Source: a virus
Length of the DNA: 59,538 bases
IMG/VR virus record: IMGVR_UViG_3300028888_000014
Coordinates: 1 to 59,538 of that record
Direction: 5' to 3' (one strand)
The position numbers and the translations under genes are program-made. The notes under the pieces are model-generated. The model saw only the letters and a program-made list of their open reading frames with translations. It was not told the origin of the DNA and searched no databases. Shown piece by piece: positions 16,901-59,413 of this stretch (position 1 is its first letter; every line of letters starts with the position of its first letter).

Positions 16901-19236
16901 TTCTCCAATGCGTTGAAGAGTCTTTCCGCCCTGTCTTTCTCTTTCTCCATTTCCACTGCGGTTTCCTTGTGTATTCTTTCGAGTTCTCTGCTCTCTCTCA
17001 CAATCTTGATTATCAGCATTAGGACTTCAGCCGCGATTGTGGCGATGAGCATCCAGTGGTTTTTCAGCAGGGAGGTCAGAGTTGCTTTTTCTTTTAGACC
17101 GCCAATTTCATTTTCGAGACCGCTCATTTTCTTTTTGAGAATCTCTTCCCTTTGCATAAGGTTGACAATCTGATTTCTCACACCGGCCTCTATCTCTTTG
17201 GTTCGCAGGAGGTCTTTTTCCTGGACAGCGATGATTTCATTTATTTGAGCGATTTTTTCTTCTTTGGTCAGCGTGGTGCTGGCAAGTATGTTTTTCTGCG
17301 CTTCGAGACTTTTTTGCAGGGCTTTTTCTTTGGTGAGCTGTGCATTAGCCAGCAGTTGGCGTTGCTCTTCTGTCGCTATGGCGTTTTCAATTCTTGCTTT
17401 GTTCTGGAGCTCCCAGTTCATCTCCGCTTCGCTTGCTTTGCCCTGCATCTTCAACCCGAGGATTCTGTTCTCCGATTCCTGCAGGCTTTTCTTCAGCGTG
17501 TTTGTCCTTGCTGCGGACGCTGAGATTTCCTCTTCCAATGCAAGGGATGTGCGTTTGGAAATTTCTATCTGTTTGTTGAGAGCATATTCGGCCTTCAGTC
17601 TTGCATCGCTCCCTCTTGCTACCGCTTCTCTTTGCGCCTCAAGATCTTTGAGATTTTCTTGCATGGCAGCTTCCCTTTTCTTGGACCGTTCGACTTGCTC
17701 TTGCAGTTCGACACGTCGTCTTTCGACCATGGCGATTTCATCTTCTTTCTCCCTATATTGCTCTTGCGCCATCTTTATCTGGTTCTGTGCCACCTTCATC
17801 CCTTTGTACTCCTGCACAATTCCGATTTCATTAAAGCTGTTCTTCAGATTGTCCCAGTTCTTGCGCACTTTGTTGATGGCGAGCATTCCGGCTGCGCCGA
17901 TGGCCATCCATGCGTTCTCGGCGTGGTCCGTCACTCTGGACAGCCACTTGATGACCTTCCCGCCGAACATCGTGTATTTCACGATGTAGGGGTAGAGCTT
18001 CTCGCCGAGTTCCACGCGGGCATCGAACACGGTCTTCTTCGCCTTCTCCATTTGCGCCTGCAGGGTCTCGTTCATCACGGAGTACTCCTCGTTCATGGAG
18101 GTTCCTTCCTTTATGGCCTTGCTGGCGGTCTCCTGGGCGACCCTCACTTTGTCGATGTTGGTGGACAGGGCGAGGATCACCTGTGACGCTCTTGTTGCGT
18201 CAGCACCCAGGTCTTTGAATATGGGGACAATGGCCTGCACGTCGCCGATGTCGTGCAGCTTCTGCAGCACGGCGAGGAACGCCTGGTTGAAGTCCTTGGC
18301 CATGAGGTCCGACAGTTCTTTCTCGCCCATGCCGATCATCTCGGCGAAGCTGCCGGTCTTCTTTATCATCTGCTGCATGATCTTGGTGACGGCGGTGGCG
18401 GACATCTCAGGTGCCTTGCTGTTCTGCGACAGCACGCTGCCGAGACCGGCCATCTGGTCGAGGCTCATGCCGGCGATGGATGCGTAGGAGGCGATGCGCC
18501 CGAGGAACTTGGCGATCTGGCTCTCGTTGGCCGTGCTGGTCTTGCCCAGCTCGTTGATGACGGAGCCGGTGCGGATCAGCGTCTCCTCAAGTCCCGCGTT
18601 CCGGATTTCGCTGGTGGTGTCCTTGAAGACCTGCGCCAGCTTGGTGACCTCGATGATGGCGTCGGTGCCGCCGAGCACGTCTCCCAAGGCCACGTTGATG
18701 ACGTCCGCCGCTTTCACGAACTCCAGCACATCCTCCTTGCCGTTCACGCCCAGCTTGCCGGCGGCGTAGGCCAGCTCGTTGAGTTCCTCCCTCGATGTAC
18801 GGGTGTCTATCTTGGTGAACTCCCTGTTAAGGTCGGCCACCTCCTGCCGCGACAGCATGGTGGTCTTGCGCACCCTTCCCATGGCGTCGTCCAGTCCTGC
18901 CATGTCGGAGGCCAGGTCGCGCATCTTCTGCAGACCTCTACCGAGGAACTGTACGGTTTGCACGATGCCGGACAACACGGAGCCTATCATGCTGATCTGG
19001 TTAAGACGTTCCTTGTTCTTTTCCGTTGAACTTTTTATAAGTCTTTCCTCACGTTCCAAAGCGTCTTGCATCCTGGATATTTCCGCCGCCTTGGCGTAGT
19101 ATTCTTGTGTGCCTTTAGCCATCGCTTTCCACGCTGCCTTCTCTTTCTCCAATCTATTTGTCAGTTCGTCGATTGACTTTTTGGCATCCTTGTTGTTGAC
19201 GTATATGTTTACCGATCTTACTGCTCCTTTTGCCAT
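13936..19236 (-). CDS. Tail tape measure protein (1766 aa)
   Basis: Very long, Glu/Lys/Ala-rich with extensive coiled-coil-like sequence and hydrophobic central segments. It sits between candidate chaperone genes and tail-tip genes. Confidence 0.85.
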   Translation of the reverse strand: MAKGAVRSVNIYVNNKDAKKSIDELTNRLEKEKAAWKAMAKGTQEYYAKAAEISRMQDALEREERLIKSSTEKNKERLNQISMIGSVLSGIVQTVQFLGRGLQKMRDLASDMAGLDDAMGRVRKTTMLSRQEVADLNREFTKIDTRTSREELNELAYAAGKLGVNGKEDVLEFVKAADVINVALGDVLGGTDAIIEVTKLAQVFKDTTSEIRNAGLEETLIRTGSVINELGKTSTANESQIAKFLGRIASYASIAGMSLDQMAGLGSVLSQNSKAPEMSATAVTKIMQQMIKKTGSFAEMIGMGEKELSDLMAKDFNQAFLAVLQKLHDIGDVQAIVPIFKDLGADATRASQVILALSTNIDKVRVAQETASKAIKEGTSMNEEYSVMNETLQAQMEKAKKTVFDARVELGEKLYPYIVKYTMFGGKVIKWLSRVTDHAENAWMAIGAAGMLAINKVRKNWDNLKNSFNEIGIVQEYKGMKVAQNQIKMAQEQYREKEDEIAMVERRRVELQEQVERSKKREAAMQENLKDLEAQREAVARGSDARLKAEYALNKQIEISKRTSLALEEEISASAARTNTLKKSLQESENRILGLKMQGKASEAEMNWELQNKARIENAIATEEQRQLLANAQLTKEKALQKSLEAQKNILASTTLTKEEKIAQINEIIAVQEKDLLRTKEIEAGVRNQIVNLMQREEILKKKMSGLENEIGGLKEKATLTSLLKNHWMLIATIAAEVLMLIIKIVRESRELERIHKETAVEMEKEKDRAERLFNALENVNTTEEQRAEIMKTLNEKYGKYLANLTNEEGQLWNIEAAHRAVIKAIEDEAAAKGFQKAKDKLTDEYMGEGKHFGQNLTEIQNGFEKILLKWVKNPDEKDRAEAARNASKIAEALRAGSGNEEIKTLLSSMGYTRDINALLGTRETFVAGKGMKGELNILVSLSESMDRYREKFSEFNEKIETEAARYGVNLKSGAEKLAADLKELRKYESEFQSETSKMIKASENIRKLNVKKAGFQAFGTEDYAPTATNASAAAAEALAYKKRSEMTGEIVNMIIDKLFDGKTIDQADDKTQKAALTKLENEGIKLLGNDVATMGEEVAEMFTNAAAMVTARIRNASHDGGGGSYNAETDDYDPSSPVTSGKESGKTPEERWADLMKKTAKLNEKASAESLGISSAKETVINTYNAIIKEVESFNETYKGFEERAAAESARLEQEKWDEIARIEDEERAKRLKKIDDNLSSVTEKLNKFRLKQQRKYQTQLETDMKEMENDFGKLGQKAEEERNKLNERKDASLTIGNMFDWSSDTDVVEQAFEDNAELFGKIGLTREKWEEAMKQKPRNAQDLLTLLGLKFDDEDQRKLDKVTEAIKELDKAKLAEMQALTAERSREIVTAMSDSVTRQYREAMKTLEDQILTLEVAQQYLQEHNDGGENDERLKEIEKTLAFLKGRKSDIQTKYDTAFGKDTWATLFGITEEDWAAWDKNWEDNLSKMTDRLRTFADNAFELWSAIDSVMQNQADAELQRYEEMYDSKSAVLKRQLDSGLISQKRYDAQMERMQKEKEKKEKKLKHDAFERERTANLIQGAVNLALTISSVFANEPGGLIIKSAASAIAAAIQATQLAVIASQPNPYYKGGYIHGRQYAVMGEQGDEWVASNRLLRDRETADIIAALDEYQRGDRKALAGISIPQPDLKNVSQAVRAGSGTFAPSNQTTTNNYYQNDNGELLKELRQMNDYLRDPNNRRAYISRKIQLEFDDQEREVRELARL

Positions 19237-22017: not shown

Positions 22018-23364
22018 CTATTGGATTTTTTCTTCCGTCGAATGACCTGTGTCCAGTGTGGTGAGCAGCAGGTTGCGGTATTTTATGTCAATGTATTTGT
22101 GTCCGTTGAAACGGAGCATGGTTTCCACGGGGTCGAGCACCAGCTGCCGTTCGCAGTGGTTGAGGATGATCGACACTATGAAGGCCTCGCGGATGTCGGA
22201 GCCGCTGCCGCTGTTGCCGGCGTATGCCCCTCCGGGCATCCCCGCGCCGAAGACGGCGGGGTTGATCATCAGAGAGAAAAGAATCTCGGAGTTGGCGGCC
22301 ACACTGGTCGTCAGCTTCTCGTCCGCGCTGGACTTGTTGTCGAGCTTGTTGACCTCCCATTTGCCGTCGCCGCGCCCCTGCGCATCGTCCATGTAGGGCG
22401 TGAAGAACCCCTTGTTGGCGTTCTCCACCGAGCAGAGGTTCTTTTCCAGGTCGTTGAGCCAGGTTTCGTATTCCCTCTGCCGTTCCTCAGGTGTCATGGA
22501 AGCGTATTTCTCCTCGCTGAACTTGTTGTCGATGTAGGAGTACGGCACATTGACGTGCCACATCAGCGACATCGCGTTCTTGTAGATGGTCTTCAGGAAC
22601 TTCGGGACTTCCTTGTACACGTCTATCCATCCGGATTTCTTCACGGCGTCCCATGCGGGTAGGGCGTAGTAGTCGTTGTTCGAGAAGTAGTTCTTGAGGC
22701 GTGGGAACGCCACCGCCCCCTTGCCTTTCAGTTTGCCGGTGTCCTTTCGCCACATCAGATCCTCCAGCGGCATCTTCTCGTCGAGCATGGGGATGACCCA
22801 TGCGGTGTCGTCCGGGTCTCCGTGTTCGAAGTCGTTGTATACAAGGAGTTTGTCTTTCTTGACGCTGATTCTGCAGTGCCGGGCGTTGACGGTGTCCACG
22901 CGCACTATTTTGTTGCCTCCGTTGTTGAAGACCAGCACGGGGAATGCGTTGCCGAACTTGAAGAGGTCTCGGAGGGCCTCGAACTGGTGGTTTCGGAACC
23001 AGTGGCTGTTGAGCATCTGGATCACGTCAAGGTCGTTGTACGGTTCGTATATCTCCTTGAACTTTTCGTCGATGCCCTTGAGCGTGACGGGCACCACGCC
23101 GCTGCCCGCGCAGGTGCGGCAGCGGTAGTCGATGCCCGTGTTGAGCACGCCGATGGATCCGACCAGCTCGGCACTCCGACCGGGCCAGTTGTTGTCGTAT
23201 CCCCACGGCACGTAATCTGTACCTTTGAAGTTGAACCAATCCTCCGCTTTCTCCGTCGTGGCTTTTTTCTCGCGGCTGCTTCTGTCGTCGTAGGCGGTCA
23301 CCACGGCGGTCTTGCCCACCATGGCCAGCGGTACGAACTTTTTGTTGGTGAGAATCTTTGTCAT
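22018..23364 (-). CDS. Portal protein (448 aa from ATG 23364), putative
   Basis: Size, position at the head of a structural operon, and the Gly-rich segment FGAGMPGGAYAGNSGSGSDIREAF. The track N-terminal extension (23365-23772) is an Arg-rich shadow overlapping another CDS. Confidence 0.55.
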   Translation of the reverse strand: MTKILTNKKFVPLAMVGKTAVVTAYDDRSSREKKATTEKAEDWFNFKGTDYVPWGYDNNWPGRSAELVGSIGVLNTGIDYRCRTCAGSGVVPVTLKGIDEKFKEIYEPYNDLDVIQMLNSHWFRNHQFEALRDLFKFGNAFPVLVFNNGGNKIVRVDTVNARHCRISVKKDKLLVYNDFEHGDPDDTAWVIPMLDEKMPLEDLMWRKDTGKLKGKGAVAFPRLKNYFSNNDYYALPAWDAVKKSGWIDVYKEVPKFLKTIYKNAMSLMWHVNVPYSYIDNKFSEEKYASMTPEERQREYETWLNDLEKNLCSVENANKGFFTPYMDDAQGRGDGKWEVNKLDNKSSADEKLTTSVAANSEILFSLMINPAVFGAGMPGGAYAGNSGSGSDIREAFIVSIILNHCERQLVLDPVETMLRFNGHKYIDIKYRNLLLTTLDTGHSTEEKIQ

Positions 23365-23633
23365 AGTGTCACTCGTTGTTCGTTGAATGTCCGGATGAAG
23401 TCGATGCGCACGGGTATGGGATGCCCGACGGGAAGGCCGTGGATGTCGTGTTCCTGTATCCCCCGCATCCTGTTGGCCTCCATGTCCATCTTCAGCCCGC
23501 AGGTCTGCGCCCGCTGGACGAATCTCACCTCCCCGTTCCTTGTGTAGAAGGATATGGAGAAATAGACCGGCTTTCCGCCAGCCTCCTTGATTTCCATTTC
23601 TTTCAGCGCCATTGCGCGTTTGATTTTCTTCAT
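23361..23633 (-). CDS. Hypothetical small protein (90 aa), first gene of late operon 2
   Basis: ATG lies 17 nt downstream of a TAatTTTG box; ATGA overlap with the portal start. Confidence 0.5.
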   Translation of the reverse strand: MKKIKRAMALKEMEIKEAGGKPVYFSISFYTRNGEVRFVQRAQTCGLKMDMEANRMRGIQEHDIHGLPVGHPIPVRIDFIRTFNEQRVTL

Positions 23634-23684: not shown

Positions 23685-23716
23685 AAAAAAAAGGGCATCG
23701 CCTGTGGCGATGCCCT
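23685..23716 (-). terminator. Rho-independent terminator
   Basis: Perfect 11-bp stem agggcatcgcc/ggcgatgccct with a tgt loop, followed on the - strand by an 8-nt T run. Confidence 0.75.
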
Positions 23717-23735
23717 CTGTTCAATTCTGTTTTTT

Positions 23736-24098
23736 TCATCCTCCCATGCCTCCGATAATCGGTGCCATCCACGTCATCGGGTTAGGTGCATGTTTTTTCT
23801 TTATTTCTTGTATAGCCCTGTCCTTGCCGTAGTGGAAAGATGTCGTAAAATCGAATTCTGACTTTTCATTCAGGACATAAATGCAATCCTCTGTTTCAAT
23901 TCCTTTTCCGAGAACGTTTCCGAAATCGTCCGTCACTTCATTTAGTTCGCTGAAAAAATCCACCGAGCAGTATGTTTCCCACCACGCCAAGCTCAAGCGT
24001 CTTTGATCCATGGATGTCTTGACTATATCGTATATCGCGCGCTCAAGTTTTATTCTTTGGTCTATGTCCATCGGACCGTCTATGATTTGTTTTTCCAT
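23736..24098 (-). CDS. Hypothetical protein (120 aa), partner of the RHH protein
   Basis: Lies 12 nt downstream of the RHH gene and shares its promoter and terminator. Confidence 0.5.
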   Translation of the reverse strand: MEKQIIDGPMDIDQRIKLERAIYDIVKTSMDQRRLSLAWWETYCSVDFFSELNEVTDDFGNVLGKGIETEDCIYVLNEKSEFDFTTSFHYGKDRAIQEIKKKHAPNPMTWMAPIIGGMGG

Positions 24099-24110: not shown

Positions 24111-24527
24111 TTAGAAATTAGACCATTCCTCGATATTGTTCCCCGGCTTTTCCCAAAAGCGTTTCGCGCGCTTCATCATCGCGGCCGTCTGCGCGGCGGT
24201 GAGGGTTTCCACCTTCTTCCGCATCGTATCAAGGTCGGCGCCGTGGCGGGTGAGGGTTCCCTCGAACTTCTCGCCGTCCTCTATGGTGGCCATCATCAGG
24301 CTCTTGACGCAGATGTACTGCGGCACGAGCATCCTGCTGTTGACCAAGTCGATCAACGCTGTCCACTCTTCGGGTGAGAATTTCCCCTTCAGCTCATCTT
24401 CCGAATACTTGAGCATCTGCTGATGCTCTTCGATTATTTCAAGGACGGTCTGGTTGATGCCTTGGTCGTTGGAGGAGAGTCTATCGTAAATCTCCTCCGG
24501 GATTCTTAACGTGATGTTCTTGTTCAT
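24111..24527 (-). CDS. Ribbon-helix-helix (CopG/Arc-like) N-terminal domain protein (138 aa)
   Basis: The N-terminus NITLRIPEEIYDRLSS..INQTVLEIIEEH fits a beta-strand / helix / helix RHH pattern. Confidence 0.5.
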   Translation of the reverse strand: MNKNITLRIPEEIYDRLSSNDQGINQTVLEIIEEHQQMLKYSEDELKGKFSPEEWTALIDLVNSRMLVPQYICVKSLMMATIEDGEKFEGTLTRHGADLDTMRKKVETLTAAQTAAMMKRAKRFWEKPGNNIEEWSNF

Positions 24528-24551
24528 AATTTTTGGTTTTTAAATTCGCGG

Positions 24552-24559
24552 CAAAAATA
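24552..24559 (-). promoter_or_regulatory. -7 promoter box (TATTTTTG)
   Basis: The reverse complement of caaaaata matches TAnnTTTG, 24 nt upstream of the ATG at 24527. Confidence 0.5.
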
Positions 24560-24622
24560 CAAAATATTTCAATATACACACACTTTGCAAATATTTTTAT
24601 TTGCAAAGTGTGTGCATTGTTT

Positions 24623-25681
24623 TTAAAGCAAGGCGTCTATCATTTCCGCCTTGTAAAGTCTCGCCGGGGATAGTGGCGTGAGGAAGTCGAATCTGTCTAT
24701 CCATATTTCGGTTTTCGAAGGCATTCCGGGAGTGGGGTATTCGATAATTCTGATGTCAAGTATCCGGTACGGCCCGTGGAGCGCTAAAGAGATATCCATT
24801 GGTTCCCGATAGTAAGCCATATTCCCGATGTGCGCTTCCCATAAGCTGTGGTCGTATCTGCATCCGGCTGTTGTATAGGACAATCTTCTCCCTATTGCCG
24901 GCTCATAAAAATGGAAATACTTCTGTGCCGTGGTTCTTTCGTTGTCGTCAGGTCTTGTTATCTGTCCTTTATTGACGATGTTTATTCCGGTATTGAACGC
25001 CGCAACGAACCGTTCCAACGCGCTCTGTCCACTTTGCTTTTCTCCGTCCACTGGTACCCGTCCACTTTGCTTTTCTCCGTCCACCGGTACCCGTCCACTT
25101 TGCTTTTCCGCATCCACCGGCACCCGTCCACTTTGCTTTCCCGCCGCCACTGTCGTCAGTCCACTTTGCTTTTTTCCGTCCACTTGCACCCGTCCACTTT
25201 CGCTTTTCAATGTCTTTGTTTTTTCCATTTTTTTTGCTTTTTTGTCTGTATTTGTCATTCCTATCACAGCGATGTCGCATTTTTTCCCGAGTGCTTTCAT
25301 TGCCGCCTCTGCTGTCATTCCCGTGTCATATACGTTGTCGATGAGCACGAAATTTCCCCGTATTTCATGTCTGTATTTTTTTCGGAACACTGGTTCTTTT
25401 GGACGCTTTCCCGCCTTTTTCATTTCGCACAGTCCGTCACGCACTTCGCCTCTAAGGCAGTTTTCGACTTTGAATCCTCCTTTTTGCGCTATCCTTATTG
25501 TAAGCATCAATGTATATGCAGCATATCCGAACCTTCCCGGTATCGGTATTAGTGTGCTTCCTTCAGGTATCATTGTCGAGAGTGCTCTTGCCGCTTTTTC
25601 TATGGATTCGACGTCTCCTTCCTTTACTTTGCGGCACATTTTTCTGTATGTTCTGTATTCTCCCATGGTGATGATTTTCAT
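24623..25681 (-). CDS. ComF-like / type I phosphoribosyltransferase-domain protein with internal 11-aa repeats (352 aa)
   Basis: LIPIPGR ... NFVLIDNVYDTGMTAEAA resembles the PRPP-binding loop of the PRTase/ComF family. The middle has (SGRVPVDGEKQ)n and the C-terminal 120 aa are unknown. Confidence 0.55.
   Translation of the reverse strand: MKIITMGEYRTYRKMCRKVKEGDVESIEKAARALSTMIPEGSTLIPIPGRFGYAAYTLMLTIRIAQKGGFKVENCLRGEVRDGLCEMKKAGKRPKEPVFRKKYRHEIRGNFVLIDNVYDTGMTAEAAMKALGKKCDIAVIGMTNTDKKAKKMEKTKTLKSESGRVQVDGKKQSGLTTVAAGKQSGRVPVDAEKQSGRVPVDGEKQSGRVPVDGEKQSGQSALERFVAAFNTGINIVNKGQITRPDDNERTTAQKYFHFYEPAIGRRLSYTTAGCRYDHSLWEAHIGNMAYYREPMDISLALHGPYRILDIRIIEYPTPGMPSKTEIWIDRFDFLTPLSPARLYKAEMIDALL
25028..25205. 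repeat. 33-bp tandem repeat, about 5.4 copies, in frame within the PRTase-like CDS
   Basis: Units begin at 25028, 25061, 25094, 25127, 25160 and 25193 (tccactttgcttttctccgtccacyggtacccg). Confidence 0.85.
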
Positions 25682-25699
25682 GTCTTCTCATACTTTGTT

Positions 25700-26134
25700 T
25701 CAAATCAATCCCTCTTCTGCGAACGAATAGTATTTGTCTTCAGTCACTATTATGTGATCCACCAGGTTTATTGAGAAGATTTCCAATGCGGCTTTAACTT
25801 TCTCTGTTATAAGTTTGTCGTTTTTGCTTGGTTTTGTTGAACCGCTCGGATGGTTGTGTATGAGTATTACCTGTGTAGCCAGTGTATCCAGCGCGGCTTT
25901 GCAAACCAGTCTTGCGTCCACGGGTGTGTCCGCCACCCCTCCCTGCGATATCTTCATCCACCCTATGATCATTCCTGCGTTGTTTATCATTATCATGAAG
26001 CAAGATTCGTATAAGTTTATGTCTTCATGATAGAACTCCATGGCGTAGTTGTATGCGTCCACTGAACTCTTCACATACGCTTCTTTGAAGCATTCCGTTT
26101 TTTTAGCTTTTATTTCGTATTTGTATGATTCCAT
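25700..26134 (-). CDS. RadC-like JAB/MPN domain protein (144 aa)
   Basis: VILIHNHPSGSTKPSKNDKLITEKV contains the HNHPSG JAMM-type signature of the RadC family. Confidence 0.85.
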   Translation of the reverse strand: MESYKYEIKAKKTECFKEAYVKSSVDAYNYAMEFYHEDINLYESCFMIMINNAGMIIGWMKISQGGVADTPVDARLVCKAALDTLATQVILIHNHPSGSTKPSKNDKLITEKVKAALEIFSINLVDHIIVTEDKYYSFAEEGLI

Positions 26135-26218
26135 CTTTTTTTCGCCGGTGTTATCCTCTTGGCTCTTGAGTTCTTTTTGAAAAATGCACTAAATACGTGT
26201 CGTGCGCAACTTTTGTTC

Positions 26219-27100
26219 TTAAATCAGGTAGTTGTCCAGGAATTTGTTCATTGCTATGTTCTGCGGCAGGACGTTTGGTATTTCCATTTTGTCCGCTTTG
26301 TACAGTTCTGTCGCGGTGTTGTATATGTCCCACAGCGTCACTGTTCCCTGTTGTTTCTGTTTTATCAATAGCGCTTCCGTGAATGTGCTGATTTGCGTCT
26401 GGTTGAACGGATATGTGTCCTTCATCCGGATTTCCGGGTTCGAGCTGTCATGTGCCACCCTCATGGCTGTCAGTTCCCCGATTATCTGAAGCACTTGTTC
26501 CGGTCTCATGACTGTTTCTCTCATTCTTCGGATGTATTCCTGTTCCTCTCCGATGATTTTCCCGCTTTCCGCCATCCATCTTTCAACTTCTTCGCTTATT
26601 TGGTTCATGTCCCGTTTGTTCCTTCCGTAGTTCGACACCATTCTGTCTGCCCCGAGGATGCACTGGTTGTGGCAGACTTTCACCATGGTCCCGTAAGCCA
26701 CCTGTATTCCGTCCTGATGGAACGCCACGGCCATGTTGGATGTGAACTCTTCCGTGTCATAGTCGAGTATTCTGATGTTGGCGTACACTCTTCTGAGCAC
26801 ATGTGCTTCCACCGCTTTGTACCCGTATCTTTTTTCCACCTCCGGCAGCAGGACCACTCCCGGTTGCGATTTGTCTCTGTTCTGTGCCGCGAAGATCTCC
26901 TCTATTTTCATCTTCAGCCCGTGTCTTTCCGCGATGTCCCTGCACATCTCTATCACTTGCCAATGGTACATTCCTTTGAGCGGGTGTCCCATGATGTCGT
27001 TTTCCTCGTGTGTCCTCTTGAGTTGTTCAAGAGTCAGTGTCTGCACTTTCGCTTTTTCGAAGTCCAGGAATTCTGTGTTTAAGTTTGTTATTTGTTCCAT
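26219..27100 (-). CDS. DUF932-like protein (293 aa)
   Basis: AFHQDGIQVAYGTMVKVCHNQCILG resembles the NS.DGS...G..R.VC.NG core of DUF932. It is adjacent to a RadC-like gene, as in integrative elements. Confidence 0.55.
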   Translation of the reverse strand: MEQITNLNTEFLDFEKAKVQTLTLEQLKRTHEENDIMGHPLKGMYHWQVIEMCRDIAERHGLKMKIEEIFAAQNRDKSQPGVVLLPEVEKRYGYKAVEAHVLRRVYANIRILDYDTEEFTSNMAVAFHQDGIQVAYGTMVKVCHNQCILGADRMVSNYGRNKRDMNQISEEVERWMAESGKIIGEEQEYIRRMRETVMRPEQVLQIIGELTAMRVAHDSSNPEIRMKDTYPFNQTQISTFTEALLIKQKQQGTVTLWDIYNTATELYKADKMEIPNVLPQNIAMNKFLDNYLI

Positions 27101-27130
27101 TTTTTTTGATTTTAAGTTTTTCTGTTCTTT

Positions 27131-27955
27131 TTATGCACGCATTCTTTCTTCATTCATTCTTTCGTTCTCTTCAATCCGTTTTTTCAGTCCTTCTTTCACG
27201 AACTCGTTGATTTTTTCGGTGAGCCCTGGCATCAGAATTGTGATGTCGCACGTCTCTTTGAAGCTTTTCATTTTCATTATCCCTTTCCATTCCTGAATTT
27301 TCCCTGCTTCCGGATATTTCACCTCTTCTATCATTTCCTCTATCGCTGGGATGTCCGCCCCTGATGTGTATTGCGCAATCCCCAGTATGGTTTCCGCCAC
27401 CGATACTTGGGCTGTCGCGTCTCCGTGGATTTTCTGTTTGCTTTTGAATTCGAACGTCCTTAACCTTTCTGTATCCTCTATCCAGCTTCTGTCTTTGTTC
27501 ATCCTCCAGCTTATTCTTGTCGCGCATTCCACCACGGCGGCTCTTTTTGTCAGCGCTATCACGTAGCACATTTCGTCTATTTCACCTCCTGTCGCATTTT
27601 TCCCGCTGAATTGGTTCCTTATGCTTGCCGTCCATCTCTCCGCTCCGTAGTTTCTTTTGTCCCAGAACTTCCCCGCTGCTATCTGGCATACCTTTTCCAA
27701 TACGCATTCGTCTGTGTCTTCCCTCATTTCTTCCGGTGTTCTCATTCCTCGATAGCTGTTGTTTCCGTACCAATCCTGGATTTTCGGGTCGATTTTCCTC
27801 ATGTTCTCGTTCAGTTCTTTCATTCTGTCGTACATTTCGTCGTACGATTTTATTGTGGTCTCCCTCAGTTCTGCCAGGCGGACTATTTTTTCCGTCTTTT
27901 TGTTTCCGAACACTTTCGGAGCCCATTCTTTGAATTTTTCCATGAATTTTTCCAT
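27131..27955 (-). CDS. Hypothetical protein (274 aa)
   Basis: ATG start, ordinary composition, within the accessory operon. Confidence 0.55.
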   Translation of the reverse strand: MEKFMEKFKEWAPKVFGNKKTEKIVRLAELRETTIKSYDEMYDRMKELNENMRKIDPKIQDWYGNNSYRGMRTPEEMREDTDECVLEKVCQIAAGKFWDKRNYGAERWTASIRNQFSGKNATGGEIDEMCYVIALTKRAAVVECATRISWRMNKDRSWIEDTERLRTFEFKSKQKIHGDATAQVSVAETILGIAQYTSGADIPAIEEMIEEVKYPEAGKIQEWKGIMKMKSFKETCDITILMPGLTEKINEFVKEGLKKRIEENERMNEERMRA

Positions 27956-27973
27956 TTTGTTTCTCCTTTCTTT

Positions 27974-28144
27974 TTATCTTTTGTGAAATCCGACTTTCTT
28001 TTCTTCCTTTTCGAGTGATTTGTAGAATCTTGCCAGTGATTCTTTGAGTTCTTTCCACTCTTCGTGTCTGATCAGCTCTCTTTTCTCGTGTCTCACGGCT
28101 ATCACTGTCGCCGCGTTTATCACGCTGTTTGTCGATGCGTTCAT
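27974..28144 (-). CDS. Hypothetical small protein (56 aa from ATG 28144)
   Basis: The track start at 28171 is TTG and overlaps a hairpin; the first ATG is at 28144. Confidence 0.35.
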   Translation of the reverse strand: MNASTNSVINAATVIAVRHEKRELIRHEEWKELKESLARFYKSLEKEEKKVGFHKR

Positions 28145-28169
28145 ATCCTTTTTTTTAAATCGATAAAAC

Positions 28170-28199
28170 AAAGGGGAAAGGATTTCTCCCTCCCCCTTT
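28170..28199 (-). terminator. Possible intra-operon hairpin/terminator
   Basis: Stem aaagggg/cccc-ttt with an inner gga/tcc pairing, downstream of the stop at 28207. The T run is only moderate. Confidence 0.35.
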
Positions 28200-28206
28200 C
28201 TGTTTG

Positions 28207-28710
28207 CTATCTGAGGATTTCATCTTCGAGGCTCTTGAGTTTGCTTTCAATCTTGGTATCCAGCCACTCGCAGAACTCCTTCAGGATTTCCCTGTTGGAG
28301 ATGTTGAACATGTCCTTGAACTCGGCGTTGTACCCTACCGAGGCAAGTTTCCTCAGCGTCAGCTTGCAGAAGTCCACCTCGAAGTCCTTGGATTTCTCCA
28401 GCTTCGATTTGAGTTCCTTCAGTTCCTCCCTTGTGTTAAGGAGTACCTGTCGTTTCTTCGAGGCTTCTTCCCTTTCCTTGCCCTCTTCGATGATTTTCTT
28501 GATCATCCGTTCGCGTTCCGCCGGGTCTTGCATTAAGTTTGCCGGCTTCGTCGCTGGTACTATCTCCGTGCCCTTTGAGTCTGCCGCGGCTCCTGCGATG
28601 GCCTCTGCAATCTGCTCTTTCGTCTTTGCGAGGTCTTTCGAATCAAGCACCACAGCGGTTGTTTCGATGGTGTTGTTCTGGTTCTTGCTGGTTTCGTTGT
28701 TTTTCTTCAT
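28207..28710 (-). CDS. Hypothetical coiled-coil-rich protein (167 aa), first gene of the leftward accessory operon
   Basis: ATG start, E/K-rich sequence, preceded by a conserved 25-bp leader motif. Confidence 0.55.
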   Translation of the reverse strand: MKKNNETSKNQNNTIETTAVVLDSKDLAKTKEQIAEAIAGAAADSKGTEIVPATKPANLMQDPAERERMIKKIIEEGKEREEASKKRQVLLNTREELKELKSKLEKSKDFEVDFCKLTLRKLASVGYNAEFKDMFNISNREILKEFCEWLDTKIESKLKSLEDEILR

Positions 28711-29122
28711 TTTGATTGTTGCCTGTGTTATCCTCTTGGCTCGTGAGTTTTTTTGTTGGATTTTTTTTGTTTGGCTTTTCAGTTTGCCGCGCCCGAAATC
28801 CTTCGCGGGCGGCTGGCGCGTGCGCCTGCCCGCTGCTGTTGTCGTCCGCCCTGTGGCGGTGCTTTGGTCTTCCCGATACTGGCGGCCTCGCGGTTCCCGC
28901 CCTGCCTCCGTGCCGCACTTCTCGCGGTGGCTTCTTTGTTGCTTCGATGCGGTTTCAGTCTTTCAATGAACGGACCCGAAAAAATTCGGGTTGGGTCGCG
29001 GCGGGGTCCTGGTACACTCTTTTTGTTTTGTCCTTTTCTGCTTCTTTAGTTGTCCGGTGCGTTTCCCGCTTTCGCCGTTGTCGCGGGGTGTCGGTGCTGT
29101 GCCTCAACCCTTTAACAATGCA

Positions 29123-29130
29123 CAAATATA
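29123..29130 (-). promoter_or_regulatory. -7 promoter box (TATATTTG) of the leftward early promoter
   Basis: The reverse complement of caaatata matches TAnnTTTG. Operator O1 lies 11 nt upstream. Confidence 0.5.
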
Positions 29131-29141
29131 CAAAAATTATT

Positions 29142-29161
29142 GATACTGTCAACACACAATC
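29142..29161. promoter_or_regulatory. Operator O1: 20-bp dyad GATacTGTcaacACAcaATC
   Basis: Fits GAT-N2-TGT-N4-ACA-N2-ATC; one of three copies. Confidence 0.65.
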
Positions 29162-29186
29162 AAAAATATTTTTATCTTTTTCAGTC

Positions 29187-29206
29187 GATAATGTCAATAC
29201 ATAATC
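29187..29206. promoter_or_regulatory. Operator O2: 20-bp dyad GATaaTGTcaatACAtaATC
   Basis: Same dyad pattern, 10 nt upstream of the -7 box at 29217 and 45 bp centre-to-centre from O1. Confidence 0.65.
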
Positions 29207-29216
29207 AAAAAAGTCT

Positions 29217-29224
29217 TATCTTTG
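29217..29224 (+). promoter_or_regulatory. -7 promoter box (TATCTTTG) for the RHH gene
   Basis: Matches TAnnTTTG, 19 nt upstream of the ATG at 29244. Confidence 0.55.
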
Positions 29225-29243: not shown

Positions 29244-29465
29244 ATGGACGAAAAAAAAGTTTCCGAGAAAAAAGCCTCCCGCGGCGGTCGCCGCGAAAAC
29301 GCGGGGCGCAAAGCCCCCGACGGGAAAAAGGCCGTGAATCTGAACATCCGCACAACTCCCGATTTTCGCGTAAAATTGAAAGATTTGGCGCAAAATGAAA
29401 AAATGAGCGTATCGGATTTCTTGCGGTTTCTCGTCACTGACTACGAGAGGCGGAAAAATTCTTGA
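29244..29465 (+). CDS. Ribbon-helix-helix DNA-binding protein (73 aa), candidate switch regulator
   Basis: Basic N-terminal tail (SRGGRRENAGRK), then VNLNIRTTPDFRVKLKDLAQNEKMSVSDFLRFLV, which fits a strand-helix-helix RHH fold. Operators flank it. Confidence 0.6.
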   Translation: MDEKKVSEKKASRGGRRENAGRKAPDGKKAVNLNIRTTPDFRVKLKDLAQNEKMSVSDFLRFLVTDYERRKNS

Positions 29466-29728: not shown

Positions 29729-29891
29729 CGATGGCGACCAGCACCACGGCGGCAGGGCTGGACGGATGGCGACCAGCACCACGGCGGCAGGGCTGGACGG
29801 ATGGCGACCAGCACCACGGCGGCAGGGCTGGACGGACGGCGACAAGCACCACGGCGGCACGGCTGGACAGACGGCGACCACCGCCACGGCA
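29729..29891. repeat. 35-bp GC-rich tandem repeat, about 4.6 copies, non-coding
   Basis: Units start at 29729, 29764, 29799, 29834 and 29869 (gatggcgaccagcaccacggcggcagggctggacg). The period is not a multiple of 3. Confidence 0.9.
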
Positions 29892-30091: not shown

Positions 30092-30194
30092 ATATGACAC
30101 CCACGGAAACGGCACACGATATTTTTTTTGTTTATTATGTTGTAACTAATTGAAACACAGATAAATAAAAACAATAAAAAGATAAAAATAATTT

Positions 30195-30214
30195 TGATTA
30201 TGTGTTGACAATAT
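30195..30214. promoter_or_regulatory. Operator O3: 20-bp dyad GATtaTGTgttgACAatATC
   Basis: Same dyad pattern as O1 and O2, 11 nt upstream of the -7 box at 30226. Confidence 0.65.
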
Positions 30215-30225
30215 CAAATAAAATA

Positions 30226-30233
30226 CTATCTTT
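30226..30233 (+). promoter_or_regulatory. -7 promoter box (TATCTTTG) of the rightward early operon
   Basis: Matches TAnnTTTG, upstream of CDS 30364-30927. Confidence 0.55.
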
Positions 30234-30363
30234 GTAGTGGGTTGATACAACGACAGCCCGCCCGCGTTCCTTGACATATTGACAGAGCGACACCAATTTT
30301 TTTTCAACATATCAAATTTTCCTTTAAAAGTCTTGGGGGTGTGTGGATAACCCCCGCAATAGT

Positions 30364-32661: not shown

Positions 32662-32695
32662 AAGGGCGTGCCGAACGGCGCGCCCTTTTGGTTTT
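32662..32695. terminator. Terminator hairpin between convergent operons
   Basis: Stem aagggcg/cgccctt followed by ttttggtttt, lying between the stop at 32636 (+) and the terL stop at 32695 (-). Confidence 0.55.
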
Positions 32696-34425
32696 CAGCC
32701 CATGCTCGTGCGGATGAACGGCCGCACCTTCCTGCCCACGGTGTCGCCGTATTTGGTCCAAGCCAGCTTATCAATTGCGTCGGAGAAGTGCGTGGCCTCC
32801 TCGGGCAGCACGCCCGAGGTGGGCTTCTCCGAGCGCTTGTCCTTCTTGAAGACGTTGCCTCCATAGACCATCCGGGCGTTGTTCATTGAGATGAGCGTGT
32901 AGCGGCAGCGGTTGCCGTTGATCCGGAACCGTACGGGGCACGACGGCCTCTCGGAGAGGATCTCCTGCCACAGCAGGTGCTTGTCGCTCATCGGCGGCTC
33001 GCCGCGCCGGTGCACCCTGGCGACCACGTTCCAGCCGTTGCGGCGGAAGATGTCCATGGCCTGCTCGTTGTAGGAGCGGGAGTTGACGACGTTGGGGTTT
33101 CTGTGGTCGCCGTAGCGGTCGCGGTAGTAGTACAGCGTCCTGTTGCGGTGGCCGGCGTAGTAGCGGCAGAACCGGTTGCAGATGTCGTCGATGACGGTGT
33201 CCGAGCCGTCCGGCTTGGCGAAGAACTCGTTGATCTGGTAGAGGTAGTCGCCCCGGAAGCCGGCCTCCGGCTCGTAGCCTGGTGTGGCCGCGACGAACGG
33301 AAGCTCCAGCCTGTAGGTCTGGCAGACCACGAACAGCGAGATCTGCGAGCCCCAGTCGGGGGCGATTTCCAGCGGCCGGTCGGGGTCGTAGTCGCGGTCG
33401 AACCTGGCGCTCTCGATCTTGCCAGTAAACCCGAGTTCGGCGTGGGAGGTGAGCCCCGCCTCCTCCATGGCCTTGACGTCGTAGCCGGTGTAATAGACGT
33501 GCCGCTGCTCGTCCAGGTTGTAGAAGCAGTCCTCGACCCTCTCCACGTAGAGGTTGAGGATTTCGATGAGGAACTCGAGGTTGGTGAGCGCGTCGCGCTG
33601 GTCCTTGATGTACTTGAGCCCGATGTTGGCCAGGTTGTCGAAGGCGTTGGCCACGTAGAACAGGGTGCCGTCGTCGGAGAGGCGCGGCGGCATCAGTTTC
33701 CGGACATTCTCGATGTCGTTCCAGCACTCGGCGAACTCTTTCGCGTCGCCGGTGTCCAGCAGCTGCTGCTGCAGGTGGACGATGCGGTTCCAGACCTGCA
33801 TGATCTCGATGCCGAACCTCTCGCGGTAGTATTCCGCGAACTTGAAGATCCAGCGGCCCTCCCGCGTGTAGGGCATGGAGGTGGTGAGGTCGAAGCCGTG
33901 GTGCAGGTGGCAGGCGTGGTGTGCGCCCTTGCCGAAGTGCTCCAGGTTGCCGCGGTTGGTCGGGAAAGCCACTTTGAGCAGCTTCTGCTCGCTGAGCAGG
34001 AGCACCTCGTCGGCCATGATCTTGTCCACGTTGACGCCGCGCATGTTGTCGCTTTCCGTCTGCGAGAACATGGCCATCTTGCAGCCGTTGGCCACGGAGA
34101 TGCAGTTCTCGTACTTTTCGATTTTGCCGTAGCTGTCCTCCCACCTTTCAGGCGGGCGGCGGTTGACCACGTAGTTGCCGTCCTTGACGTAGCCGAACTT
34201 GTCCAGGGCCGACAGCATGGTCTGGAAGGTGCCGGTGTAGCCCACGCCGAAGGTCTTGACCGGCATCCCGATCATGCATCTGGGCATGAGGCGTATGGCC
34301 TCGTCCAGGCGTTGGCCGAGGATCCACGACTTTCCGGTGGCGCGGCCGCACACCAGCACGAGGCTGCGGGGCGCCAGCACCTTGCACATCAGCTGTATCC
34401 TGTTGACCGGGATGTTGATTTCCAT
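32695..34425 (-). CDS. terL: Terminase large subunit
   Basis: 576 aa. Walker A-like VCGRATGKS, Walker B-like VDKIMADEV, and a C-terminal region of nuclease-domain size. Confidence 0.85.
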   Translation of the reverse strand: MEINIPVNRIQLMCKVLAPRSLVLVCGRATGKSWILGQRLDEAIRLMPRCMIGMPVKTFGVGYTGTFQTMLSALDKFGYVKDGNYVVNRRPPERWEDSYGKIEKYENCISVANGCKMAMFSQTESDNMRGVNVDKIMADEVLLLSEQKLLKVAFPTNRGNLEHFGKGAHHACHLHHGFDLTTSMPYTREGRWIFKFAEYYRERFGIEIMQVWNRIVHLQQQLLDTGDAKEFAECWNDIENVRKLMPPRLSDDGTLFYVANAFDNLANIGLKYIKDQRDALTNLEFLIEILNLYVERVEDCFYNLDEQRHVYYTGYDVKAMEEAGLTSHAELGFTGKIESARFDRDYDPDRPLEIAPDWGSQISLFVVCQTYRLELPFVAATPGYEPEAGFRGDYLYQINEFFAKPDGSDTVIDDICNRFCRYYAGHRNRTLYYYRDRYGDHRNPNVVNSRSYNEQAMDIFRRNGWNVVARVHRRGEPPMSDKHLLWQEILSERPSCPVRFRINGNRCRYTLISMNNARMVYGGNVFKKDKRSEKPTSGVLPEEATHFSDAIDKLAWTKYGDTVGRKVRPFIRTSMG

Positions 34426-59370: not shown

Positions 59371-59413
59371 AACCCCGCAACGCGCTGTTTTACAAAACGT
59401 TGCGGGGTTTTAT
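59371..59413 (+). terminator. Rho-independent terminator between the repressor operon and int
   Basis: 12-bp stem aaccccgcaacg/cgttgcggggtt followed by tttta. Confidence 0.6.

What the first reader, a model, noticed from the sequence alone, without database searches (positions are those of the whole stretch)
24623..29130. Leftward early operon resembling a conjugative-element leading region: candidate anti-defence island in a phage
From the promoter at 29123-29130 the operon encodes, in order: a 167-aa, a 56-aa and a 274-aa unknown, a DUF932-like protein, a RadC-like JAB protein and a ComF-like phosphoribosyltransferase. DUF932 together with a RadC-like JAB protein, usually with antirestriction and toxin-antitoxin genes, is a recurring gene string in integrative and conjugative elements and in E. 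coli cryptic prophages (the CP4-57 and CP4-6 type strings). There it is thought to act early after DNA entry. Here the string sits under an operator-controlled early promoter of a phage, with a PRTase and three unknowns that have no assigned function. The combination is not a described system as far as I can tell.
Basis: partly seen in the sequence, partly recalled or inferred. Interest (0 to 1): 0.7.

Follow-up and report, generated by a model that had tools for sequence, protein, structure and literature searches.

The report
Accessory gene island in Bacteroidales phage
A temperate gut or rumen Bacteroidales phage carries, between its terminase and portal genes, a separately promoted six-gene cassette (DUF932, RadC-type JAB enzyme, mobile-element phosphoribosyltransferase and three orphans) whose families belong to the toolkit that invading DNA elements are thought to use against host immunity; its function has not been tested.

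Summary
Six minus-strand genes (167, 56, 274, 293, 144 and 352 aa) run from a Bacteroidota-type promoter at 29130-29123 to a 17-bp hairpin at 24614-24577. Related phages keep them in the same order.

RadC is solid. DUF932 is confirmed by Pfam, by its homologues and by predicted fold. The "PRTase" has no direct Pfam hit. Its N-terminal 150 aa belong to a large mobile-element PRTase clade (D-N instead of D-D in the PRPP loop). This clade occurs solo and inside 4,000-7,400-aa polyvalent proteins, 7 of which also carry RadC. Its C-terminal half (SGRVPVD repeats plus an unknown domain) is a separate gene in sister phages.

The cassette lies in a low-GC variable hotspot between terL and portal. Across diverged phages this hotspot holds PRTase, RadC and DUF932 in varying combinations and orders, or PcfK/PcfJ, ADP-ribosylglycohydrolase and DpnD/PcfM.

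The resemblance to conjugative elements is therefore real. Early timing and anti-defence activity remain inferred. A prophage-expressed moron or defence role and late virion delivery are not excluded.

Iyer et al. 2017 already described this PRTase clade, RadC in polyvalent proteins and solo copies in phages. I rate it a new variant of a known kind, of moderate interest.

The parts
29123..29152 (-). Leftward promoter: TTGACA (29152-29147), 16-nt spacer, then TATATTTG (29130-29123), the Bacteroidota -7 box
   Evidence: TAnnTTTG occurs 39 times in the window against 18.4 expected.
29142..29166 (.). 25-nt operator or promoter element, copy A. It is part of the 60-nt module 29122-29181, which is inverted-repeated at 30176-30235.
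   Evidence: I1, 82% complementary; D9
29187..29211 (.). Operator or promoter element, copy B (88% identical to copy A). It abuts the -7 box TATCTTTG (29217-29224, + strand) of the RHH gene.
30176..30235 (+). Third copy of the promoter module. It drives the rightward genes (TTGACA at 30205; -7 box at 30227-30234).
29244..29465 (+). Divergent 73-aa ribbon-helix-helix protein (weak NikA-like/RHH_10 hits), the candidate regulator of the shared operator
   Evidence: It holds this position in all close relatives.
28711..29122 (-). 412-nt non-coding leader, more conserved than the first CDS
   Evidence: The overall RNA fold is not significant (z -0.74). Local hairpins show 8 covarying pairs.
28207..28710 (-). 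167-aa coiled-coil protein with no family. A 133-137-aa homologue follows DUF932 in more distant phages.
28170..28199 (-). Terminator-like hairpin inside the operon, after the 167-aa gene (13-bp stem)
   Evidence: conserved in L006
27974..28144 (-). 56-aa protein, conserved only in the close lineage
27131..27955 (-). 274-aa orphan protein. The family has only 11 clusters among 5.8 billion proteins and no Pfam or PDB match.
26219..27100 (-). DUF932 protein (293 aa), the constant anchor of the hotspot. Conserved FAAQN(R/K) and CHNQC motifs.
25700..26134 (-). Short RadC-type JAB protein (144 aa) with an intact HxH-x7-S-x2-D metal site (HNHPSGSTKPSKND)
25232..25681 (-). N-terminal domain of the 352-aa protein: mobile-element PRTase clade. 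Signature residues are K20, P46-x-P48, R50, G52, K88 and D115-N116-V-x-D-T-G-x-T123.
25027..25208 (-). 33-nt tandem repeat (5.5 copies) encoding the SGRVPVD(G/A)EKQ linker
24623..25009 (-). C-terminal domain of about 125 aa, of unknown fold. In sister phages it is a separate gene together with the repeats.
   Evidence: A gene-start-like sequence lies at M152 (D10).
24577..24614 (.). Perfect 17-bp palindromic hairpin directly after the stop codon; the likely end of the transcription unit
24111..24559 (-). Second small unit: -7 box TATTTTTG (24559-24552) and the 138-aa gene
23690..24098 (-). 120-aa gene (24098-23736) followed by a strong intrinsic terminator (23718-23690)
   Evidence: Its homologue in L001 lies on the other side of the switch region.
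26148..26165 (-). 18-nt motif GAGCCAAGAGGATAACAC just upstream of the RadC start. A second exact copy at 28725-28742 lies upstream of the 167-aa gene.
   Evidence: (D11)
32695..34425 (-). Flank: large terminase subunit (576 aa)
   Evidence: tblastn to annotated terminases, E 2e-43
22018..23400 (-). Flank: portal protein (about 450 aa)
   Evidence: tblastn to annotated portal proteins, E 6e-26

Best explanation
This is an autonomously promoted accessory cassette in a hypervariable, low-GC hotspot between the terminase and portal genes of a temperate Bacteroidales siphovirus.

Its recognisable genes are stand-alone versions of domains that other mobile elements fuse into giant polyvalent proteins delivered with invading DNA. 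These are a RadC-type JAB metallohydrolase and a D-N-type PRTase. DUF932, a gene typical of integrative elements, accompanies them.

The most likely role is to help the phage establish itself in a new cell. The proteins would act on host nucleic-acid-based or nucleotide-based immunity, or on its protein components.

Proposed sequence of events:
1. The promoter at 29130 fires when no regulator is present.
2. RadC and the PRTase-like protein, which are often adjacent or translationally coupled elsewhere, act together.
3. The divergently encoded RHH protein then binds the shared 25-nt element and shuts off all three promoters, as Aca proteins do for anti-CRISPR operons.

Shown here: the gene content, the homologies, the domain fusions, the hotspot behaviour and the promoter repeats. 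Inferred: expression timing, regulation by the RHH protein, enzymatic activities and any anti-defence effect.
For: - The genes are real and syntenic.
- Region 24-33 kb has 45-50% GC against 54-63% in the flanks.
- The flanks are terL and portal.
- Cargo at this site varies between related phages:
  - PRTase fused, split or absent.
  - PcfK/PcfJ in place of the PRTase domain.
  - A DUF932 cassette in the opposite orientation.
  - DUF7659, ADP-ribosylglycohydrolase, DpnD/PcfM and DUF3846 in other DUF932 cassettes.
- The PRTase-like domain sits in polyvalent proteins with LPD11, LPD23, ArdC-N, ART-PolyVal, MutS_I, SNF2 and a methylase.
- RadC shares the same polypeptide in 7 of 41 large proteins and in a viral 3,119-aa ORF that also has LPD38.
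- Among 22 distant viral loci with the PRTase domain, 8 have RadC and 6 have DUF932 within 6 kb, in both gene orders.
- The solo PRTase P0009 overlaps the preceding RadC gene by 4 nt.
- Another solo PRTase lies in an array with ArdA and LPD28.
- The RadC JAMM motif and the family-invariant PRTase residues are intact.
- Three copies of the promoter/operator module flank a divergent RHH gene.
- Iyer et al. 2017 propose early-invasion roles for exactly these domains.
Against: - No protein matches a characterised anti-defence protein. The evidence is guilt by association.
- The cassette lies among late genes. In L197-type phages PRTase and RadC are co-directional with terL and portal, with no opposite-strand genes between them. 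That fits late expression.
- The phage is temperate (integrase). The cassette has the promoter-plus-terminator form of a moron, which could be expressed from the prophage.
- DUF932 has no structural relative in the PDB, and three of the six proteins have no family at all.
- The D-N substitution in the PRPP loop leaves catalytic competence uncertain.
- The only biochemistry on a mobile-element RadC (LfgB) shows unspecific protease activity against an antitoxin and casein.
Confidence: 0.5

Rival explanations
1. Prophage-expressed moron cluster. The cassette is transcribed from the integrated phage and benefits the lysogen, for example through superinfection exclusion or defence against other phages and plasmids, rather than helping the phage invade.
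For: - It has its own promoter and terminator-like hairpins and is embedded between late genes.
- The phage has an integrase.
- Hotspots next to the portal gene of P2-like phages carry defence systems.
- A preprint reports strong selection on a DUF932 gene of an integrated plasmid after phage exposure, and its authors suggest a role in phage defence.
- CP4-57 LfgB, a RadC-type protein, acts in host stress physiology.
Against: - None of the eight proteins tested hit PADLOC at a meaningful E-value.
- RadC and the PRTase domain are fused into polyvalent proteins with ArdC-N, methylases and LPD domains, which are the invading element's side of the conflict.
- Neighbours elsewhere include ArdA.
Confidence: 0.2
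2. Late-expressed effectors delivered in the virion. The proteins are made with the structural genes, packaged in the capsid and injected with the DNA, as proposed for phage polyvalent proteins and for P1 Dar proteins. This is still counter-defence, but pre-early rather than early-transcribed.
For: - The position is directly upstream of portal.
- In L197, L199, L201, L203, L206 and L207, PRTase and RadC lie co-directionally between terL and portal. In L197, the one examined in detail, no opposite-strand regulatory genes lie between them.
- A viral polyvalent ORF combines RadC, PRTase and the phage-type domain LPD38.
- Iyer et al. read solo copies next to virion genes this way.
Against: - In the window the cassette has its own promoter, shared with a divergent regulator.
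- A hairpin, a second promoter and a strong terminator separate it from portal.
- In L086-type phages the DUF932 cassette is antiparallel to the structural genes.
- No MuF or other capsid-targeting domain was found.
Confidence: 0.15
3. Housekeeping for the phage itself. The proteins would be accessory factors for DNA packaging, end processing, replication or recombination, or for nucleotide or DNA-modification metabolism. The reasoning draws on ComFC as an ssDNA-binding PRTase, on RadC as a nuclease, and on the position next to the terminase.
For: - The location lies between terL and portal.
- The PRTase clade shares a conserved arginine with ComFC-type proteins (R50 in the window).
- RadC has been proposed to process nucleic acids.
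Against: - Presence is patchy and the genes are replaced by unrelated cargo in close relatives.
- GC content is low relative to the core.
- There is no hit to replication, recombination or structural families.
- Polaribacter phage Leef_1 has different small genes at this site.
Confidence: 0.1

Closest known systems
Solo versions of polyvalent-protein domains in phages and conjugative elements (Iyer, Burroughs, Anand, de Souza, Aravind 2017, PMC5512222)
   Same: - The PRTase-like domain belongs to a mobile-element clade that occurs both solo and inside giant multi-domain proteins.
- RadC occurs in the same proteins.
- Solo copies sit next to virion genes.
- A role early in invasion is proposed.
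   Different: - The paper describes a catalytic D-D motif. This clade has D-N in 94% of 157 domains.
- The paper places the PRTase mainly in Proteobacteria and Verrucomicrobia and RadC only in conjugative-type polyvalent proteins. Here both are in Bacteroidales phages, and one viral ORF combines them with the phage-type LPD38.
- DUF932 is not mentioned in that paper.
- The fusion to the repeat plus C-terminal domain is new.
E. coli cryptic prophage CP4-57 string yfjQ ... yfjX(lfgA)-yfjY(lfgB)-ypjJ-yfjZ-ypjF
   Same: It contains a DUF932 gene, an antirestriction-like gene and a RadC-type JAB gene in one integrated element.
   Different: - In CP4-57, DUF932 and RadC are 7 kb apart and the RadC gene belongs to an operon with a toxin-antitoxin pair.
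- CP4-57 has no PRTase.
- The window has no antirestriction or toxin-antitoxin homologue.
Anti-defence islands in the leading region of conjugative plasmids (Samuel et al. 2024, PMC11541004)
   Same: Both are arrays of small co-directional genes enriched in anti-restriction-type families. These genes are thought to be expressed first after entry.
   Different: - The window has no oriT, relaxase or T4SS, and no ssDNA promoters. It is a tailed phage with terL, portal, protease and tape measure genes.
- I did not read that paper's family lists.
Anti-CRISPR operons controlled by Aca repressors
   Same: A small DNA-binding protein is encoded next to a strong promoter that carries repeated dyad elements.
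   Different: - The regulator is an RHH protein transcribed divergently.
- Binding and repression are untested.
- No Acr homologue is present.
Morons and defence hotspots of temperate phages (for example the P2 old/tin hotspot next to portal)
   Same: A variable cargo site flanked by conserved genes and adjacent to portal, with its own promoter and terminator.
   Different: The cargo families here are those of invading elements. They are not known defence systems.
ComFC competence protein
   Same: It has the type I PRTase core with the PRPP loop, and the clade has a conserved basic residue after strand 2.
   Different: There is no N-terminal zinc-finger region, no hit to any ComF model, D-N instead of D-D, and no ComFA-type helicase partner.

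Membership tests
RadC-like JAB (PF04002) | Profile match above the curated cut-off | tested here: met
   126.6 bits against a cut-off of 22.1, E 6e-37. PHROG 10276, E 2e-33.
RadC-like JAB (PF04002) | JAMM metal site H-x-H-x7-S-x2-D | tested here: met
   Read from the translation: HNHPSGSTKPSKND.
Full-length bacterial RadC/YicR (NF000642, TIGR00608) | N-terminal helix-hairpin-helix region plus JAB domain, scoring above the equivalog cut-off | tested here: not met
   108 bits against 180, and 97 against 134. Only model positions 83-212 are matched. This is the short mobile-element form.
DUF932 (PF06067) | Profile match above the gathering score | tested here: met
   23.7 against 23, which is marginal. 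Many homologues carry PF06067.
DUF932 (PF06067) | Shared fold with annotated members | tested here: met
   A model with pLDDT 90.9 matches BFVD DUF932/DUF945/TIGR03299 proteins (E 4.5e-9 to 1e-3, TM up to 0.61).
Type I phosphoribosyltransferase superfamily (PF00156) | Direct profile match | tested here: not met
   No Pfam or NCBIfam hit at E < 0.1.
Type I phosphoribosyltransferase superfamily (PF00156) | Transitive homology through family members | tested here: met
   - 23 of 60 solo relatives hit PF00156 (best E 2e-5).
- The profile covers residues 1850-2003 of P0014, where Pfam calls Pribosyltran at 37.7 bits.
- A plasmid homologue is annotated as phosphoribosyltransferase.
Type I phosphoribosyltransferase superfamily (PF00156) | PRPP-binding loop with two acidic residues followed by x-x-T-G-x-T | tested here: inconclusive
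   The loop is present (VLIDNVYDTGMT), but the second acidic residue is Asn in the window and in 94% of the clade. Activity was not tested.
Type I phosphoribosyltransferase superfamily (PF00156) | Rossmann-like PRTase fold | tested here: inconclusive
   The AF2 model with a 4-sequence alignment failed (pLDDT 34).
ComF/ComFC family | ComF-specific profile and N-terminal zinc-binding region | tested here: not met
   No ComF model hit. The domain starts at residue 1 with no Cys-rich region.
Polyvalent protein (Iyer et al. 2017) | Several unrelated effector domains in one large polypeptide | tested here: not met
   The window proteins have one or two modules each. Only their relatives are polyvalent.
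Conjugative leading region | Adjacent to oriT and relaxase in an element with a T4SS | tested here: not met
   The larger ORFs scanned gave phage genes (terL, portal, protease, tape measure, integrase) and no relaxase or T4SS hit among them. The window was not scanned exhaustively. The weak NikA-like hit is an RHH fold below the cut-off.
Known anti-phage defence systems (PADLOC) | Profile match to a defence protein | tested here: not met
   Best E-values are 0.02-0.03 with poor coverage.
Characterised anti-defence proteins (ArdA, Ocr, Acr, Tad, Acb and others) | Homology to a protein with demonstrated anti-defence activity | tested here: not met
   No such Pfam or PHROG hit for any cassette protein. 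A Tad2-like gene exists in sister phages but not in the window. No dedicated anti-defence library was available.
Phage moron | Own promoter and terminator, inserted between conserved genes, with deviating base composition | tested here: met
   These are sequence features only; expression was not tested.

The most novel reading that the evidence does not exclude
RadC-type JAB, the D-N PRTase and DUF932 form a functional module that is repeatedly assembled, in any gene order, at the terL-portal hotspot of Bacteroidales phages and is fused in polyvalent proteins elsewhere. The module would carry out a specific and so far undescribed counter-immunity reaction. One example would be a PRTase-fold protein that binds or breaks down a ribose-phosphate-based immune signal or DNA/protein ADP-ribose adduct while the JAB enzyme removes a conjugate or processes the product. 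That would give a first function to three widespread families of unknown role.
Probability: 0.15. Interest if true: 0.8.

Novelty: new variant of a known kind. Interest (0 to 1): 0.45.

Why it matters
RadC-type JAB proteins, DUF932 and the mobile-element PRTase clade are abundant in phages, plasmids and integrative elements, yet none has an established function.

This phage group offers a compact cassette with its own promoter in which all three occur together. Natural variants also exist: PRTase fused, split, replaced by PcfK/PcfJ, or absent. Independent evidence links RadC and the PRTase functionally: fusion in one polypeptide, and adjacency in both gene orders.

This makes the question experimentally approachable in Bacteroidales, whose phage-host conflict systems are poorly known. 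If the cassette is an anti-defence module it would add a new class. If it is expressed from the prophage it would point to a new defence or exclusion function.

Tried and rejected
- AF2 on the 352-aa protein with the only four homologues available gave pLDDT 34. It was useless for fold assignment and was not searched.
- Foldseek of the good DUF932 model against the PDB gave nothing (best E 0.36, TM 0.13), so no function could be read from the fold.
- PDB sequence and profile searches for the PRTase protein, DUF932 and the 274-aa family gave only noise.
- Profiles of the 167-, 56-, 274-, 138- and 120-aa proteins and of DUF932 found no counterpart inside the polyvalent giants. Only RadC did.
- Megablast of 12 kb against GenBank phages found no match. 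tblastn of the PRTase domain against phages also found none.
- Rfam on 23-31.5 kb gave only sub-threshold miRNA noise on the hairpins.
- The 412-nt leader does not fold better than shuffles (z -0.74), so I do not claim a structured RNA.
- The strict Bacteroides pattern TTTG-N17-23-TAnnTTTG is not present at the promoter. Only the -7 box and a TTGACA hexamer are.
- I considered that the 167-aa gene starts further upstream, as the longer ORFs in L001 and L006 suggest. I rejected this because the extension is Arg/Gly-rich read-through of the GC-rich leader and the window has a stop codon there.
- I considered NARP-type NAD+ reconstitution.

Full report
**1. What is there**

The window is a closed circular assembly of about 59.4 kb; its first and last 127 nt are identical. 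It is a temperate tailed phage. It encodes:
- a tyrosine integrase at 79-1200;
- a head maturation protease at 40214-41398;
- a tape-measure protein at 13936-19236 and a DUF6712 protein;
- a 576-aa protein homologous over at least 95% of its length to annotated large terminases (E 2e-43);
- a protein of about 450 aa homologous to annotated portal proteins (E 6e-26).

The TAnnTTTG -7 box typical of Bacteroidota promoters occurs 39 times against 18 expected. Relatives of the DUF932 gene are found in Alistipes, Bacteroides, Phocaeicola, Prevotella, Paludibacter and Muribaculaceae genomes. The host is therefore a member of the Bacteroidales.

**2. The observation**

The same string is found in related contigs (L001, L002, L006-L012, L015, L174-176) with protein-level conservation.

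The minus strand at 29130-29123 reads TATATTTG, with TTGACA 16 nt upstream. This promoter lies in a 60-nt module that recurs as an inverted copy at 30176-30235, where it faces the rightward genes. A 25-nt part of it recurs at 29187-29211, next to the -7 box of a divergent 73-aa ribbon-helix-helix gene.

Downstream of the promoter, in order:
- a 412-nt leader;
- the 167-aa gene;
- a terminator-like hairpin (28199-28170);
- the 56-, 274-, 293-, 144- and 352-aa genes;
- a perfect 17-bp hairpin (24614-24577).

A new -7 box (24559-24552) then precedes two further small genes (138 and 120 aa). After them come a strong intrinsic terminator (23718-23690), another -7 box, a conserved 90-aa ORF and the portal gene.

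**3. Identities**

*RadC.* The call is unambiguous (PF04002, E 6e-37). The JAMM site HNHPSGSTKPSKND is intact. This is the short mobile-element form, without the N-terminal part of bacterial RadC.

*DUF932.* The protein just passes the Pfam gathering score. It has more than 2,300 homologues, many of them flagged PF06067. It gives a confident model (pLDDT 90.9) whose best viral matches are DUF932/DUF945/TIGR03299 proteins. Nothing in the PDB resembles it. Invariant His, Cys and acidic positions (FAAQN, CHNQC, E98, R103, R104) suggest, as my own inference, an enzyme or a metal site.

*The 352-aa protein.* It has no hit in any family library and only four close homologues among 5.8 billion proteins. 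A profile search of 1.84 billion representatives gave 821 hits and showed two modules.

- Residues 1-150 are a widespread domain. It occurs as solo proteins of 140-180 aa and inside giants of 2,000-7,400 aa.
- The giants scanned carry LPD11, LPD23, ART-PolyVal, ArdC-N, MutS_I, SNF2/helicase and an Eco57I-type methylase. They are polyvalent proteins in the sense of Iyer et al. 2017.
- The domain belongs to the PRTase superfamily. 23 of 60 solo members hit PF00156. In P0014 the profile covers the stretch Pfam calls Pribosyltran. A plasmid homologue is annotated as phosphoribosyltransferase.
- The clade signature is K20, LVPxP[SG][HR]xG, K88 and D-N-V-x-[DA]-T-G-x-T. Asn replaces the second acidic residue in 94% of 157 domains.
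- It is ComF-like only loosely, and no ComF model matches it.
- Residues 152-352 consist of an SGRVPVD(G/A)EKQ repeat, encoded by a 33-nt tandem repeat, plus a domain of about 125 aa with no known relatives.
- This half is a separate gene in L006-L009 and L174-176. A gene-start-like sequence survives at M152.

*The orphans.* The 274-aa protein belongs to a family of 11 clusters. The 56-aa protein is confined to the close lineage. The 167-aa protein has a shorter homologue that follows DUF932 in more distant phages.

**4. Context and comparative evidence**

The cassette and the adjacent rightward genes (about 24-33 kb) have 45-50% GC, against 54-63% in the flanks. The region lies between terL and portal.

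The same site in related phages holds different cargo:
- DUF932 plus RadC without a PRTase (L017/18).
- A PRTase-like ORF upstream of DUF932, hit with the whole 352-aa query (L005, L013).
- PcfK and PcfJ in place of the PRTase domain, with the repeat/C-domain gene retained (L174-176).
- A three-gene cassette of a 66-aa protein, DUF932 and the 167-like protein, in the opposite orientation (L086).

Other DUF932 cassettes in viral contigs hold DUF7659, ADP-ribosylglycohydrolase (25 loci), DpnD/PcfM and DUF3846. In Bacteroidales genomes DUF932 sits in long arrays with LPD28, DUF3846, DpnD/PcfM, a reverse transcriptase and a methylase fragment. It also sits next to PcfK, PcfJ, DUF2958 and WYL_2 just upstream of a portal gene.

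I then scanned viral contigs starting from the PRTase domain. Of 30 loci, 8 are close relatives with the whole operon. Among the 22 distant ones (27-41% identity):
- 8 have RadC within 6 kb, mostly as an adjacent PRTase-then-RadC pair between terL and portal;
- 6 have DUF932 within 6 kb;
- 9 have neither.

RadC and the PRTase domain also share one polypeptide in 7 of 41 large proteins and in a 3,119-aa viral ORF with LPD38. A solo PRTase overlaps the preceding RadC gene by 4 nt in an unrelated contig. A further solo PRTase lies in an array with ArdA and LPD28. A Prevotella plasmid has the domain in a 3,234-aa protein flanked by DUF1896 and DUF4099, with radC 6 kb away.

These counts are not corrected for relatedness. 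Fusion plus adjacency in both gene orders is nevertheless the usual signature of functional linkage between RadC and this PRTase.

The DUF932-RadC pairing is less general. Among 84 Bacteroidales genome loci anchored on DUF932, RadC appeared once and the PRTase never.

**5. How it most likely works**

- Shown: an autonomous, compositionally distinct, variable cassette; the identities above; the RadC-PRTase linkage; a promoter module repeated three times around a small RHH gene.
- Inferred: the cassette helps the phage establish itself against host immunity; RadC and the PRTase-like protein act together; the RHH protein represses the three promoters after an initial burst.

The inference rests on the company these families keep: polyvalent proteins, ArdA, ArdC-N, LPD domains and Pcf genes. 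It also rests on the proposal of Iyer et al.. The only biochemistry for a mobile-element RadC is LfgB of CP4-57, which degrades the antitoxin MqsA and casein in vitro. That fits a peptidase, not a nuclease.

I put the counter-defence/establishment reading at about 0.5.

**6. Rivals**

- (a) *Moron cluster expressed from the prophage, giving defence or exclusion.* The promoter-plus-terminator architecture, the integrase, the precedent of P2 hotspots next to portal and a preprint on a DUF932 gene under selection by phage fit this reading. No PADLOC hit and the 'offensive' associations argue against it.
- (b) *Late, virion-delivered effectors.* In L197-type phages PRTase and RadC lie co-directionally between terL and portal, and in L197, the one I examined, no opposite-strand regulatory genes lie between them. 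In the window the cassette is insulated from portal, and in L086 it is antiparallel.
- (c) *Packaging, replication or nucleotide-metabolism functions.* The patchy distribution and the replacement by unrelated genes argue against an essential role.

**7. Comparison with what is known, and novelty**

The claim that the combination is undescribed needs qualifying. Iyer et al. 2017 defined the invasive-element PRTase clade, noted its kinship to ComFC, described RadC in polyvalent proteins, and noted solo copies in phages next to structural genes.

What appears to be new:
- the D-N variant clade, which has no direct Pfam match for the window protein and only weak PF00156 hits in 23 of 60 solo relatives;
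- its occurrence with RadC in Bacteroidales phages, including one phage-type polyvalent ORF;
- the recurrent PRTase/RadC/DUF932 set at the terL-portal hotspot;
- the fusion to a repeat plus an unknown domain;
- the shared-operator layout.

Full-text searches found no paper that describes a RadC-PRTase-DUF932 module. I rate it a new variant of a known kind, with interest 0.45.

Noticed in passing
window 28711-29122 (minus strand): The 412-nt leader of the operon is better conserved between related phages (78-94% identity to L001) than the first coding sequence (28-76%). It contains several GC-rich hairpins with a few compensatory changes, but its overall fold is no better than that of shuffled sequence.
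   Followed up: partly
window 26148-26165 and 28725-28742 (minus strand); L002, L006-L010: The exact 18-nt motif GAGCCAAGAGGATAACAC, within a 39-nt repeat, lies about 14 nt upstream of the start codons of both the 167-aa gene and RadC (0.02 matches expected by chance). It recurs at the same places in relatives. L006 has a third copy on the other strand in the rightward module, just beyond the 138-aa-homologue ORF. It could be a translational control site, an RNA-processing site or a recombination boundary.
   Followed up: partly
window 29730-29890: A GC-rich 35-nt tandem repeat (4.6 copies, 94% matches) lies between the RHH gene and the rightward promoter. Arrays with different units (47 nt x2.9 in L001, 43 nt x2.9 in L174) occupy the same intergenic position. 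An 18-nt stretch of the unit is complementary to 28895-28912 in the operon leader. The array may be iterons (an origin) or a regulator-binding array.
   Followed up: partly
window 1-127 and 59412-59538: The two ends are identical 127-nt direct repeats. The window is therefore a circularly closed assembly of about 59.4 kb, a complete phage genome.
   Followed up: no
window 25199-25241; L006-L009, L174-176: The 352-aa gene keeps a gene-start-like sequence (AAAAAAAATGGAA) at Met152. In near-identical relatives the N- and C-terminal halves are separate or overlapping ORFs. Repeat-mediated frameshifting, or internal initiation producing two proteins, is possible.
   Followed up: partly
L174 2568-2855, L175 2507-2812: Sister phages carry a Tad2-like (PF11195) gene two genes upstream of terL, next to the 192-aa gene. 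The window has no homologue.
   Followed up: partly
IMG/VR loci L022, L030, L057 and others (cluster c10): An ADP-ribosylglycohydrolase gene (PF03747, E 2e-35) sits 4-6 ORFs downstream of DUF932 (in my ORF ordering) in 25 viral loci and 8 genome loci. It is a plausible counter to ADP-ribosylating defence systems.
   Followed up: no
window 55302-56867, 46380-49235, 44518-45768: The phage encodes a C-5 cytosine DNA methylase and two paralogous DUF5906/phrog_28855 proteins (951 and 416 aa) that share repeated DNA segments (D6 and D8).
   Followed up: no
window 49413-49472: A perfect 30-nt tandem duplication lies inside a minus-strand ORF.
   Followed up: no
window 23361-23633 (minus strand): A conserved 83-90-aa ORF lies directly upstream of portal. 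It is present in L174 and its relatives, and its upstream half overlaps the spurious N-terminal extension of the long portal ORF. The true portal start is therefore near 23360-23400.
   Followed up: partly
window 23736-24098 against L001 3077-3433: The 120-aa gene lies downstream of the PRTase gene in the window. Its homologue in L001, L011 and L015 lies at the far end of the rightward module on the other strand. This points to gene shuffling within the hotspot.
   Followed up: no
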